Position numbers: made by a program | NCBI RefSeq assembly: GCF_055900595.2 | Contig: NZ_CM148325.1 | DNA length: 64,000 nucleotides | Strand: one strand, 5' to 3' | In this document: positions 36,301 to 39,300 of the stretch, piece by piece | Position numbering within the stretch: the stretch's first letter is position 1 | Layout: each line of letters begins with the position of its first letter

Positions 36301-39300
36301 ACTGATTCTGATCCTCTGGCGCGTGGTTTATCGCTCAGTCACGCGTCCCCTTGCCGAACAAACGCAGGCGCTGCAACGACTGCTGGACGGTGATATCAAC
36401 TCCCCTTTCCCGGAAACCGCTGGCGTGCGGGAGCTGGACACCATCGGGCGGCTGATGGATGCGTTTCGCAGCAGTGTTCATGCACTGAATCGCCACCGCG
36501 AACAGCTGGCGGCGCAGGTCAAAGCGCGTACAGCTGAATTGCAGGAGCTGGTGATAGAACACCGACAGGCACGGGCGGAAGCAGAAAAAGCCAGCCAGGC
36601 AAAATCGGCGTTTCTGGCGGCGATGAGCCATGAGATCCGCACACCGCTGTACGGTATTCTCGGCACCGCGCAACTGCTGGCGGATAATCCCGCACTTAAT
36701 GCCCAGCGTGATGATTTGCGGGCAATTACTGACTCTGGTGAATCGTTGCTGACCATCCTTAACGACATTCTCGATTATTCGGCTATCGAAGCGGGTGGCA
36801 AGAATGTTTCGGTCAGCGATGAGCCCTTTGAACCGCGCCCGCTGCTGGAAAGTACCCTGCAATTAATGAGCGGACGGGTGAAAGGTCGTCCGATTCGCCT
36901 GGTAACTGAAATTGCCGACGATGTACCGACTGCGTTAATGGGCGATCCGCGGCGTATTCGTCAGGTTATAACCAACCTGTTGAGCAACGCCCTGCGTTTC
37001 ACCGACGAAGGGCACATTATCCTGCGTAGTCGCACTGATGGCGAACAATGGCTGGTCGAAGTGGAAGACAGCGGCTGCGGTATTGATCCCTCGAAACTGG
37101 CTGAAATCTTCCAGCCATTTGTTCAGGTTAGCGGCAAACGCGGCGGCACCGGGCTGGGGCTGACTATCAGTAGCCGTCTGGCCCAGGCGATGGGCGGCGA
37201 ACTCAGCGCCACCAGCACGCCGGAGGTTGGAAGCTGTTTTTGTTTACGCTTGCCGTTACGTATTGCCACGGCACCCGTGCCAAAAACAGTCAATCAGGCG
37301 GTGCATCTGGACGGTTTACGTTTGCTGTTAATTGAAGATAACCCGCTAACCCAGCGAATTACCGTTGAGATGCTGAACAACAGTGGTGCGCAGGTCGTTG
37401 CTGTTGGCAATGCCGCGCACGCGATAGAGACGTTGCAAAATAGCGAACCGTTTGCTGCCGCACTGGTGGATTTTGATCTGCCGGATATCGACGGTATTAC
37501 CCTTGCCCGACAACTGGTACAGCAATATCCGTCGCTGGTTTTGATTGGCTTTAGCGCCCATGTCATCGACGAAACGTTGCGCCAGCGTACCAGTTCGCTA
37601 TTTCACGGGATTATCCCTAAACCGGTGCCGCGTGAAGTACTCGGTCAGTTACTGGCGCACTATCTTCAACTGCAAGTCAATAACGATCAACCGCTGGATG
37701 TATCGCAACTCAATGAAGATGCTCAGTTGATGGGGACGGAGAAGATCCAGGAATGGCTGACATTATTTAAACAACATGCCCTGCCGCTTCTCGATGACAT
37801 CGACATTGCCCGCGCCAGTCAGGAAAGCGAGAAAATAAAGCGTGCCGCACATCAGCTAAAAAGCAGTTGCTCGAGTCTGGGAATGCGTAGCGCCAGCCAG
37901 CTATGCGCACAACTGGAGCAGCAGCCATTATCTGCCCCCCTTCCACACGAAGAAATTACACGCAGTGTTGCCGCTCTGGAAGCATGGTTGAATAAGAAAG
38001 ACCTGAACGCGATTTGAATCAATATCAGCCAGTTAAGAACAACTAGAATAGTGGCATTTGGCATGCAACTTAACGGACTGGCAAAATCATGGCAGAGAAA
38101 AGAAGAACCCGCTGGCAGCGGCGGCCAGGCACGACGGGCGGCAAATTACCGTGGAATGACTGGCGCAATGCCACGACCTGGCGTAAAGCGACGCAATTAT
38201 TACTGTTGGCAATTAATATTTATATTGCCATCACGTTCTGGTATTGGGTGCGCTATTACGAAACGGCAGGTAGTACGACATTTGTCGCCAGGCCAGGAGG
38301 CATCGAAGGCTGGCTACCGATTGCCGGTCTGATGAATCTGAAATATAGCCTTGCAACAGGCCAGTTACCGTCCGTCCACGCCGCCGCGATGCTGTTATTG
38401 GTCGCTTTTATCGTCATCAGTCTATTACTAAAAAAGGCCTTTTGTTCATGGTTATGCCCGGTTGGTACGCTTTCTGAATTCATCGGCGATCTCGGTAACA
38501 AACTGTTTGGTCGGCAATTTGTCCTTCCCCGCTGTCTGGATATTCCTCTGCGCGGCGTGAAGTATTTGCTGTTGAGTTTTTTTCTCTATATCGCGTTATT
38601 GATGCCCGCTCAGGCTATTCACTATTTTATGTTGTCGCCCTACAGCGTGGTGATGGACGTTAAAATGCTCGATTTCTTTCGTCATATGGGGACCGCGACA
38701 TTAATCAGCGTGACCGTTTTGCTGATTGTCAGTCTGTTTATTCGCCATGCCTGGTGTCGTTATCTTTGCCCATATGGCGCGCTGATGGGCGTGGTTTCGC
38801 TATTGTCGCCGTTTAAGATTCGTCGCAATGCCGAAAGTTGTATCGACTGTGGCAAATGCGCAAAAAATTGCCCATCGCGGATCCCGGTCGATAAATTAAT
38901 TCAGGTACGAACCGTGGAATGTACCGGTTGTATGACTTGCGTAGAGTCATGTCCGGTAGCCTCAACATTGACCTTTTCACTGCAAAAACCTGCGGCAAAT
39001 AAAAAAGCCTTTGCGTTGTCTGGCTGGTTAATGACGCTACTGGTTCTGGGGATTATGTTTGCGGTGATTGGTTACGCAATGTATGCGGGAGTATGGCAAA
39101 GCCCGGTGCCGGAGGAATTGTACCGACGCTTAATTCCGCAAGCGCCAATGATTGGTCACTAAATTAGCAACAAGCGGAACATCACCTCGCACGGGGTGAT
39201 GTTCACAAAATCACATTATTTTGATTTTGACATCATAGCTTTCAAGCCCGGTCATTTTTTCTCGTGCGGTGAAGCGAATTTCAGAGACTTCTTTCCCTGT

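What the first reader, a model, noticed from the sequence alone, without database searches (positions are those of the whole stretch)
38089..39162. YccM polyferredoxin-like membrane protein beside the tor locus
YccM has several transmembrane helices plus two CxxCxxCxxxCP iron-sulfur motifs, like NapH/MauN-type quinol-oxidising proteins, and sits immediately downstream of torS. Its redox partner is, as far as I know, undefined.
Basis: partly seen in the sequence, partly recalled or inferred. Interest (0 to 1): 0.2.

Follow-up and report, generated by a model that had tools for sequence, protein, structure and literature searches.

The report
YccM membrane ferredoxin, nitrosative-stress linked
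This is the known but uncharacterised E. coli gene yccM, a membrane iron-sulfur protein whose position next to the tor genes is a coincidence, and whose regulation and neighbours in other bacteria tie it to the nitric-oxide/nitrite stress response, perhaps as the missing electron supplier for the repair/nitrite-reducing protein YtfE.

Summary
Window 38089-39162 (+) is an intact 357-aa ORF, E. coli yccM, 71 nt after torS. It has five predicted membrane helices, two CxxCxxCxxxCP motifs and two CxxxCP motifs. All 12 motif cysteines are kept in 81-82 of 82 relatives.

YccM is homologous to NapH (30% identity) but scores far below the curated cut-offs for NapH, NapH/MauN, NosR and CcoG. It belongs to its own widespread family.

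The tor adjacency is confined to Escherichia. Elsewhere the gene stands alone among unrelated neighbours.

The link that does recur is to NO/nitrite stress:
- A published NsrR ChIP site lies 18 nt before the start codon. Similar sites are kept upstream of yccM in Escherichia, Citrobacter, Providencia, Pectobacterium and Pragia.
- In Acidobacteria, yccM carries a CRP/HcpR-type box. It also clusters repeatedly with YtfE/RIC, hemerythrin, Hcp, qNor and a Crp/Fnr regulator.
- One Bacteroidota-like contig has a yccM-nrfH-nrfA operon.

Best reading: a membrane-anchored electron-input protein for cytoplasmic NO/nitrite-handling enzymes, with YtfE as the leading candidate partner. YtfE's physiological reductant is stated to be unknown. 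This is inference only.

Points against: yccM was not NO-responsive in one CFT073 RNA-seq, and no Salmonella or Klebsiella locus appeared among the hits.

The gene itself is already known. Interest is moderate.

The parts
38089..39162 (+). yccM coding sequence (357 aa plus stop)
   Evidence: ORF list and sequence. Annotated yccM in 5416/5426 E. coli genomes. Pfam Fer4_5 x2 plus Fer4. AlphaFold2 model with pLDDT 93.9 and pTM 0.90.
38049..38071 (.). NsrR-type 11-1-11 operator TAGTGGCATTTGGCATGCAACTT in the torS-yccM gap, ending 18 nt before the ATG
   Evidence: Read. It differs by one base from the CFT073 site TAGTGGCATTTGGTATGCAACTT, which lies under an NsrR ChIP-seq peak also found by ChIP-chip in K-12 (PMC5320621). 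It scores 15.5 bits with a PWM built from 16 other published sites, against a 99th percentile of 13.5 for random windows. Equivalent sites lie upstream of yccM in four other genera.
38058..38087 (+). Promoter-like match TTGGCA-18-CAAAAT (TG-extended -10) overlapping the NsrR site. The true start site is unresolved.
   Evidence: Consensus scan. Its -10 ends 1 nt before the ATG, so it is doubtful as the real promoter. No terminator-like site was found between torS and yccM, so read-through from torS is not excluded.
38188..38250 (+). Predicted membrane helix 1 (aa 34-54), preceded by a cytoplasmic N-terminus (aa 1-33) with 10 Lys/Arg
   Evidence: Hydropathy and charge counts. Positive-inside bias across 82 relatives. 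Helix 28-58 in the model.
38290..38337 (+). Highly conserved periplasm-side loop RPGGIEGWLPIAGLMN (aa 68-83). P77 is invariant.
   Evidence: Alignments A1 and A6.
38374..38430 (+). Predicted membrane helix 2 (aa 96-114)
38443..38460 (+). First CxxxCP motif (C119, C123, P124) at the cytoplasmic end of helix 2; first Fer4_5 repeat
   Evidence: Cysteines invariant in 82/82.
38557..38619 (+). Predicted membrane helix 3 (aa 157-177)
38686..38742 (+). Predicted membrane helix 4 (aa 200-218)
38755..38772 (+). Second CxxxCP motif (C223, C227, P228) at the cytoplasmic end of helix 4; second Fer4_5 repeat
38839..38955 (+). Cytoplasmic 2x[4Fe-4S] ferredoxin domain core, holding the two CxxCxxCxxxCP motifs (aa 251-262 and 278-289)
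39013..39075 (+). Predicted membrane helix 5 (aa 309-329), absent from NapH
   Evidence: Hydropathy 2.28. Helix 312-333. The NapH alignment stops at aa 288.
39076..39159 (+). Short conserved periplasm-side tail (aa 330-357) with W336 (80/82), P350 and C-terminal His357 (65/82)
39177..39204 (.). Hairpin (13-nt arms, 92% complementary) between the convergent yccM and gnsA genes; a possible shared terminator
   Evidence: Inverted-repeat search. It was not called by the terminator scan because no T-run follows it.

Best explanation
yccM encodes a stand-alone inner-membrane polyferredoxin. It forms its own family inside the NapH/NosR/CcoG (Fer4_5) superfamily. The predicted topology has five membrane helices, the N-terminus inside, two CxxxCP motifs at the cytoplasmic membrane face, a cytoplasmic 2x[4Fe-4S] domain between helices 4 and 5, and a short conserved periplasmic tail.

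It is not part of the Tor system. It belongs to the NO/nitrite (nitrosative) stress response. In Enterobacterales it sits behind an NsrR operator. In Acidobacteria it sits behind a CRP/HcpR-type box and is repeatedly clustered with YtfE/RIC, hemerythrin, Hcp, qNor and a Crp/Fnr regulator.

Proposed mechanism (inferred, not shown): like NapH, YccM takes electrons from the membrane quinol pool. It passes them through its cytoplasmic clusters to a soluble NO/nitrite-handling metalloenzyme docked at the membrane. The di-iron protein YtfE/RIC is the best candidate acceptor.

What is shown here: the gene, its motifs and their conservation, the family placement, the lack of a conserved tor link, the regulatory boxes and the gene clustering. 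What is inferred: the topology, the quinol donor and the acceptor.
For: Identity and architecture.

No conserved tor link. TorS is a neighbour only in Escherichia.

NsrR regulation:
- ChIP-seq peak summit 36 bp upstream of yccM in CFT073, and ChIP-chip in K-12 (PMC5320621).
- The site is present in the window at 38049-38071.
- PWM scores of at least 13 bits (99th percentile of random windows) occur upstream of yccM in Escherichia 4/4, Citrobacter 7/8, Providencia 6/6, Pectobacterium 1 of 2 (the other 11.8 bits) and Pragia, although the flanking genes differ.

Acidobacteria, gene clustering:
- An HMM census of 85 loci finds RIC (ScdA_N + hemerythrin) in 11, hemerythrin in 9 and a Crp/Fnr regulator in 15. 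There are at least 10 different arrangements.
- Examples are L082 yccM->ric on one strand, L073 hemerythrin overlapping yccM by 8 nt, and L046 yccM-crp-hcp-ric.
- Hemerythrin, cNMP_binding/HTH_Crp_2 and ScdA_N are the most recurrent Pfam families among 244 neighbour ORFs. Prismane, NorB and Cytochrom_C552 also appear.
- RIC identity passes the curated cut-offs: TIGR03652 at 231 against 204.7, and YtfE at 353 against 254 in a Providencia MAG where ytfE lies 166 nt from yccM.
- The association recurs in 12 of 48 YccM clusters at 80% identity and 5 of 21 at 70%.

Acidobacteria, regulatory box:
- TGTGA-N6-TCACA with at most 1 mismatch lies just upstream of yccM in 20 of 55 loci. With at most 2 mismatches it is 42 of 55. 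Random windows give 3.2% and 12%.
- This is the HcpR consensus reported for hcp, frdX, dnrN and nrfHA regulons (PMC1274295).
- Related boxes precede RIC in 4 loci.

Other support:
- A Bacteroidota-like contig has a yccM-nrfH-nrfA operon.
- YtfE's physiological reductant is 'unknown, but likely to be a ferredoxin' (PMC9052748).
- NapH places its [4Fe-4S] clusters on the cytoplasmic side and is part of a quinol dehydrogenase (PMC5449189).
Against: - In CFT073 the NsrR peak at yccM is weak (2.24-fold). yccM is not among the 19 NsrR targets that changed more than 1.5-fold with a physiological NO source.
- Most YccM loci show no NO-related neighbour: 36 of 55 Acidobacterial loci, and all Proteobacterial loci except one Providencia MAG.
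- No Salmonella, Klebsiella or Yersinia locus appeared among the 80 best of more than 597 matches. By my own knowledge these genera carry ytfE, so YtfE cannot depend on YccM there.
- More distant family members sit in uninformative contexts.
- No RIC/hemerythrin-YccM fusion was found.
- The reported Keio yccM phenotypes (heat, blue light, oxidants) are not NO-specific.
- The quinol site, cluster potentials and electron path are untested. TGTGA-N6-TCACA is also the generic CRP consensus.
Confidence: 0.5

Rival explanations
1. YccM is a CcoG-type cupric reductase. It binds Cu at the CxxxCP cysteines and reduces Cu(II) to Cu(I) in the cytoplasm through its two [4Fe-4S] clusters, feeding CopZ/CopA-type copper handling in a species that lacks cbb3 oxidase.
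For: A copper-homeostasis review names E. coli YccM as a CcoG homologue that lacks the periplasmic Ig-like domain (PMC7558416). The layout is shared: five helices, two CxxxC(P) motifs, two cluster motifs and a helix after the Fe-S domain. Pfam Fer4_18 and NCBIfam CcoG give weak matches.
Against: The CcoG model scores 30.8 bits against a cut-off of 316.7, well below NapH (92.7) and NosR (79.8). No FixG_C/Ig domain is present. No copper gene (CopA, CopZ, CueO, ccoNOQP or ccoHIS) recurs among about 390 neighbour ORFs. The regulatory boxes found are NsrR and HcpR/CRP types, not copper-responsive ones.
Confidence: 0.2
2. YccM is a general redox or Fe-S maintenance protein with no specific NO role. 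NsrR binding is incidental, and the Acidobacterial clustering reflects a lineage-specific island.
For: Weak ChIP enrichment and no NO-responsive expression in CFT073. The Keio mutant is sensitive to critical high temperature (complemented), blue light and several oxidants. Most loci show no informative neighbours.
Against: NsrR-like sites are kept at the same short distance from the start codon in genera with different flanking genes. A different regulator class with an HcpR-type box is used in Acidobacteria. The clustering takes at least 10 different arrangements in several YccM sub-clades, plus one Providencia and one Bacteroidota-like contig.
Confidence: 0.2
3. YccM is a NapH-like quinol dehydrogenase that serves a periplasmic reductase, for example the neighbouring Tor system.
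For: Homology to NapH. It lies 71 nt after torS on the same strand with no predicted terminator between them.
Against: The adjacency to torS is seen only in Escherichia. There is no NapG-like or other periplasmic ferredoxin partner nearby. The periplasmic tail is only 28 residues. The annotated tor cluster already contains the pentaheme cytochrome TorC, which by established knowledge is the quinol dehydrogenase of TorA. yccM also has its own operator.
Confidence: 0.04
4. YccM acts as a NosR/NirI-like membrane accessory or sensor. It keeps a partner enzyme active, or signals redox/NO status, rather than carrying bulk electron flow.
For: The NosR C-terminal half is a clear homologue (79.8 bits, aa 101-284). 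The gene lies beside a Crp/Fnr regulator in 15 loci, often divergently transcribed from it.
Against: YccM lacks the periplasmic flavin-binding N-terminal domain of NosR (no such Pfam match). It scores far below the cut-off of 1000. No data bear on signalling.
Confidence: 0.06

Closest known systems
NapH (quinol dehydrogenase ferredoxin subunit of periplasmic nitrate reductase; NapH/MauN family)
   Same: Best-scoring characterised relative: 30% identity over 216 aa, E = 1e-19. It shares two Fer4_5 repeats with CxxxCP, two [4Fe-4S] motifs, and clusters on the cytoplasmic side (PMC5449189).
   Different: YccM has a fifth helix and a conserved periplasmic tail, a longer basic N-terminus and a long conserved first periplasmic loop. 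It has no napG or nap operon context. It scores 92.7 and 88.4 bits against cut-offs of 234 and 213.
CcoG/FixG/RdxA cupric reductase of cbb3 oxidase assembly
   Same: Same overall plan: helices, two CxxxC(P) motifs, two clusters, then a further helix. YccM is cited as a homologue (PMC7558416).
   Different: No C-terminal Ig-like domain, no ccoGHIS/ccoNOQP context, 30.8 bits against a cut-off of 316.7. E. coli has no cbb3 oxidase.
NosR / NirI membrane Fe-S flavoproteins of denitrification
   Same: Homologous C-terminal membrane plus ferredoxin module (79.8 bits). Associated with nitrogen-oxide metabolism.
   Different: YccM lacks the large periplasmic N-terminal flavin-binding domain. It scores 79.8 bits against a cut-off of 1000 and has no nos or nir context.
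FrdX-type ferredoxins linked to hcp in HcpR regulons
   Same: Ferredoxin-type proteins co-regulated and co-located with NO-stress enzymes under a Crp/Fnr regulator that recognises TGTGA-N6-TCACA (PMC1274295). YccM in Acidobacteria carries the same box and similar neighbours.
   Different: The paper describes FrdX only as a ferredoxin-like protein and does not say it is membrane-bound. YccM is an integral membrane Fer4_5 protein. Homology between the two was not tested here.

Membership tests
Fer4_5 membrane polyferredoxin superfamily (NapH/NosR/CcoG/YccM) | Two Fer4_5 repeats, each a membrane helix followed by CxxxCP | tested here: met
   PF12801 at 80.3 bits against a cut-off of 22, two stretches. 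C119xxxC123P and C223xxxC227P are invariant in 82/82.
Fer4_5 membrane polyferredoxin superfamily (NapH/NosR/CcoG/YccM) | Two CxxCxxCxxxC(P) [4Fe-4S] motifs forming a ferredoxin domain | tested here: met
NapH (NF007013) and NapH/MauN (TIGR02163) | Score at or above the curated family cut-off | tested here: not met
   92.7 against 234, and 88.4 against 213.05.
NapH (NF007013) and NapH/MauN (TIGR02163) | Four membrane helices with both termini cytoplasmic | tested here: not met
   Five hydrophobic segments and a C-terminal tail beyond helix 5. The NapH alignment ends at aa 288. NapH's four helices are stated in PMC5449189.
NapH (NF007013) and NapH/MauN (TIGR02163) | Encoded with a NapG-type periplasmic ferredoxin in a nap or mau operon | tested here: not met
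   Neighbours are torS and gnsA in the window. No such partner recurs in 85 loci.
CcoG/FixG/RdxA (TIGR02745) | Score at or above the curated family cut-off | tested here: not met
   30.8 against 316.7.
CcoG/FixG/RdxA (TIGR02745) | Periplasmic C-terminal Ig-like domain | tested here: not met
   Only 28 residues follow helix 5 and there is no Pfam match there. The review states the same.
CcoG/FixG/RdxA (TIGR02745) | Cu(II) reductase activity and Cu binding at the cysteine motifs | not testable with these tools
   Needs biochemistry. The CxxxCP motifs are present.
NosR (NF046105) | Curated cut-off and N-terminal periplasmic flavin-binding domain | tested here: not met
   79.8 against 1000. The match covers only NosR positions 481-661.
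NsrR regulon (E. coli) | NsrR bound in vivo at an 11-1-11 site in the promoter region | tested here: met
   The site is in the window at 38049-38071. ChIP-seq and ChIP-chip binding are taken from PMC5320621. The site is conserved in five genera.
NsrR regulon (E. coli) | Transcription derepressed by NO or by loss of NsrR | tested here: inconclusive
   This cannot be measured here. In the CFT073 RNA-seq, yccM is not listed among the NsrR targets that changed.
YccM family (this protein's own orthologous group) | Full-length match including helix 5 and the tail with W336 and a terminal His | tested here: met
   327 representatives at E<=1e-30, many covering aa ~30-357. At least 597 species genomes. 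W336 in 80/82 and H357 in 65/82.

The most novel reading that the evidence does not exclude
YccM is the missing physiological reductase of the di-iron protein YtfE/RIC. On this reading it is a quinol-fed, membrane-anchored ferredoxin that re-reduces YtfE at the cytoplasmic membrane face. It would thereby couple YtfE's nitrite-to-NO and iron-centre repair chemistry to the respiratory chain. The same module may serve Hcp or hemerythrin-type proteins in Acidobacteria.
Probability: 0.25. Interest if true: 0.7.

Novelty: already known. Interest (0 to 1): 0.35.

Why it matters
YccM is one of the uncharacterised proteins of the E. coli core genome. The link to tor can be set aside.

If the nitrosative-stress link is right, it gives a concrete and cheaply testable candidate for an explicitly open question: what supplies electrons to YtfE/RIC. 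YtfE is a protein of pathogens that handles nitrite and NO and helps iron-sulfur enzymes recover.

It would also add a function to the NapH/NosR/CcoG superfamily. No membrane part of that superfamily matched a solved structure in the three PDB searches run here.

Tried and rejected
- A strict NsrR palindrome search with up to 3 mismatches found nothing in the window. The real site has more mismatches, so a PWM was used instead.
- A literature search for 'b0992' returned only irrelevant papers.
- The CcoG paper (PMC6800367) is not held, so CcoG properties rest on a review and my memory.
- The first AlphaFold2 model, from 30 sequences, was poor (pLDDT 62, ferredoxin domain below 50) and was discarded. 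An 82-sequence alignment gave pLDDT 93.9.
- Foldseek against the PDB gave no hit better than E = 1.9. A sequence search of the PDB hit only ferredoxin domains. The AFDB library was unavailable. Model coordinates are not exposed, so distances between cysteines could not be measured.
- A canonical FNR box (TTGA-N6-TCAA) is not found upstream of yccM in Acidobacteria.
- Ten longer relatives were scanned for fused domains such as hemerythrin, and none was found.
- More distant family members (P0130, P0127, P0147, P0152, P0189) sit on short contigs or in uninformative contexts.
- The 'sulfur relay / tRNA modification' label given to yccM in PMC5828445 has no support in domains or context. It was rejected as a likely annotation carry-over.
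- A 150-sequence Pfam batch exceeded the size limit and was split.
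Full report
**The observation**

Window 38089..39162 (+) is an ATG-started ORF of 357 codons. 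It lies 71 nt after the end of the torS ORF (38017) on the same strand.

The translation carries C119xxxC123P, C223xxxC227P, C251xxCxxCxxxC261P and C278xxCxxCxxxC288P. It has five hydrophobic segments at about aa 34-54, 96-114, 157-177, 200-218 and 309-329.

The 2.2-kb stretch around the gene is present in 5416 of 5426 complete E. coli genomes, where the gene is annotated 'yccM: 4Fe-4S binding protein'. The local gene order is torCAD, torR, torT, torS, yccM, gnsA, ymcE, ymcF, cspG.

**Family placement**

Pfam finds two Fer4_5 repeats (80 bits against a cut-off of 22) and ferredoxin-type Fer4 domains.

NCBIfam ranks the known families as follows, all far below their curated cut-offs:

| Family | Score (bits) | Cut-off (bits) |
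|---|---|---|
| NapH | 92.7 | 234 |
| NapH/MauN | 88.4 | 213 |
| NosR | 79.8 | 1000 |
| CcoG | 30.8 | 316.7 |

Against E. coli NapH itself the match is 30% identity over 216 aa (E = 1e-19). It runs from helix 2 to the second cluster motif. YccM is therefore a homologue of these proteins but a member of none.

It has its own family. There are 327 representatives at E<=1e-30, many covering aa ~30-357, and at least 597 species genomes. Most are Acidobacteria. Some are Burkholderiales MAGs. Within Enterobacterales the distribution is patchy: Escherichia, Citrobacter, Providencia, Pectobacterium, one Serratia, Pragia, Budvicia and Limnobaculum. No Salmonella or Klebsiella locus was among the best hits.

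In an 82-sequence alignment reaching 28% identity, all 12 motif cysteines are kept in 81-82 sequences. The following are also kept:
- P77, inside a strongly conserved loop RPxGxEGWLPIAGLMN
- H97 and D190
- W336
- a C-terminal His

**Structure and topology**

The 82-sequence alignment gives an AlphaFold2 model with pLDDT 93.9 and pTM 0.90.

Positive-inside counts across the family point to an N-terminus-in topology:

| Segment | Lys+Arg per 10 residues |
|---|---|
| N-terminus | 2.2 |
| Loop 2 | 1.6 |
| Loop 4, with the Fe-S domain | 1.4 |
| Other loops and the tail | 0.7-1.0 |

On this topology the CxxxCP motifs and both clusters are on the cytoplasmic side, as reported for NapH (PMC5449189).

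**The tor link**

Orthologues in the following all have unrelated neighbours, and no gene recurs among them:
- Citrobacter (L002)
- Providencia (L003)
- Pragia (L005)
- an unnamed gammaproteobacterium (L006)
- Burkholderiales MAGs (L008)

TorS is a neighbour only in Escherichia (L010-L012). The adjacency is a local accident of gene order.

**Regulation in Enterobacterales**

PMC5320621 reports an NsrR ChIP-seq peak whose summit lies 36 bp upstream of yccM in CFT073. The same target was found by ChIP-chip in K-12. The 11-1-11 site is TAGTGGCATTTGGTATGCAACTT.

The window has the same site with one substitution at 38049-38071, ending 18 nt before the ATG.

A PWM built from 16 other published NsrR sites scores it 15.5 bits. 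The 99th percentile of random 153-nt windows is 13.5 bits. The PWM finds sites of at least 13 bits upstream of yccM in the following, despite different flanking genes:

| Genus | Loci with a site of at least 13 bits | Position |
|---|---|---|
| Escherichia | 4/4 | 17 nt before the start codon |
| Citrobacter | 7/8 | |
| Providencia | 6/6 | 15-16 nt before the start codon |
| Pectobacterium | 1 of 2 (the other scores 11.8) | |
| Pragia | yes (L005) | |

A caveat applies. The CFT073 peak is weak (2.24-fold), and yccM is not among the NsrR targets that changed in that study's RNA-seq.

**Context in Acidobacteria and beyond**

An HMM census of 85 loci finds YtfE/RIC-type genes (ScdA_N + hemerythrin) in 11, single-domain hemerythrins in 9 and a Crp/Fnr regulator in 15. 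There are at least ten arrangements. Examples:
- L082: yccM followed by ric on the same strand
- L073: hemerythrin overlapping yccM by 8 nt
- L046: yccM, crp, hcp, ric
- L047/L048: crp, yccM and a quinol NO reductase
- A Providencia MAG with a bona fide ytfE 166 nt from yccM

Among 244 neighbour ORFs the most recurrent Pfam families are Hemerythrin, cNMP_binding/HTH_Crp_2 and ScdA_N. Prismane, NorB and Cytochrom_C552 also occur, and no copper genes.

The association recurs in 12 of 48 YccM clusters at 80% identity and 5 of 21 at 70%.

A TGTGA-N6-TCACA box with at most 1 mismatch lies just upstream of yccM in 20 of 55 loci. With at most 2 mismatches it is 42 of 55. Random windows give 3.2% and 12%. 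This is the consensus reported for HcpR, the Crp/Fnr regulator of hcp, frdX, dnrN(ytfE) and nrfHA (PMC1274295). Related boxes precede RIC genes in four loci.

A Bacteroidota-like contig has yccM overlapping nrfH-nrfA.

So the gene is held in NO/nitrite-responsive settings under two unrelated regulator classes.

**Mechanism**

The best-supported reading is a membrane-anchored electron-input protein for cytoplasmic NO/nitrite-handling metalloenzymes.

YtfE/RIC is the leading candidate acceptor for three reasons:
- It is the most frequent neighbour.
- In E. coli it is a strong NsrR target, where yccM is also NsrR-bound.
- Its physiological reductant is stated to be unknown and 'likely to be a ferredoxin' (PMC9052748).

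The quinol donor is inferred from NapH. None of this is shown, and cluster potentials are unknown.

The points against are listed above. In addition, no Salmonella, Klebsiella or Yersinia locus was among the best hits. The reported Keio phenotypes (heat, blue light, oxidants) are not NO-specific.

The main rival is CcoG-like Cu(II) reduction (PMC7558416). It shares the architecture but has no support from context or regulation.

**Verdict**

The gene, its motifs, its homology to NapH and CcoG and its NsrR binding are already in the literature.

The added value here has two parts. The tor link is removed. Comparative-genomic evidence now makes the question of YtfE's electron supply directly testable with yccM.

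Noticed in passing
window 38518-38535 (aa 144-149 of YccM): The window allele has F144 and C149, where mainstream E. coli has C144 and W149. W149 is Trp in 61 of 82 family members, and no other member has Cys there. Only the closely related bovine strain EC42405 shares the allele.
   Followed up: partly
window 37500-39700: Only 4 of 5416 E. coli genomes are at least 99% identical over this stretch, and almost all others are 95-99%. The window therefore comes from a somewhat divergent E. coli lineage (best match EC42405, bovine, France).
   Followed up: no
window 39724-40146 (-): Rfam cspA thermoregulator (RF01766, 160.9 bits). It covers the cspG coding region and its 5' leader, downstream of the yccM-gnsA-ymcE-ymcF block.
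   Followed up: no
L090 5001-8195 (and L091): In a Bacteroidota-like metagenome contig, a full-length YccM relative (44% identity) overlaps by 32 nt the start of nrfH, which is followed by nrfA. This looks like a yccM-nrfH-nrfA operon.
   Followed up: partly
L070 6723-7976, L085 6533-7552: A radical-SAM gene sits between the hemerythrin gene and the Crp/Fnr regulator in the Acidobacterial yccM-hemerythrin-crp-ric clusters. Its role is unknown.
   Followed up: no
L047 764-1471 (-): The Crp/Fnr regulator transcribed divergently from yccM has an N-terminal cysteine-rich stretch (CFMCKERHADWFC). This is reminiscent of FNR-type cluster-binding sensors. It matches no curated equivalog.
   Followed up: partly
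Proteobacterial yccM loci L010-L034 (locus not resolved): Among the neighbours of Proteobacterial yccM genes, GGDEF occurs in three ORFs, and Protoglobin and DosC_2nd in two each, which looks like a DosC-type globin-coupled diguanylate cyclase. Which loci carry it was not worked out; the link may be chance or another gas-sensing association.
   Followed up: no
window 38089-39162, opposite strand: A 2026 paper lists a TadA-dependent A-to-I RNA editing event in an antisense transcript, 'yccM-as' (PMC13170351). The antisense transcript was not examined here.
   Followed up: no
window 32105-33268 (+): A 387-aa ORF lies antisense to torC. It is a by-product of mechanical ORF listing, since torC occupies the other strand, and is not a gene candidate.
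   Followed up: no
PMC5828445 (literature): yccM is labelled 'sulfur relay system / tRNA modification' there. Nothing in its domains or context supports this. The heat-sensitivity of the Keio mutant was, however, complemented by a plasmid.
   Followed up: partly
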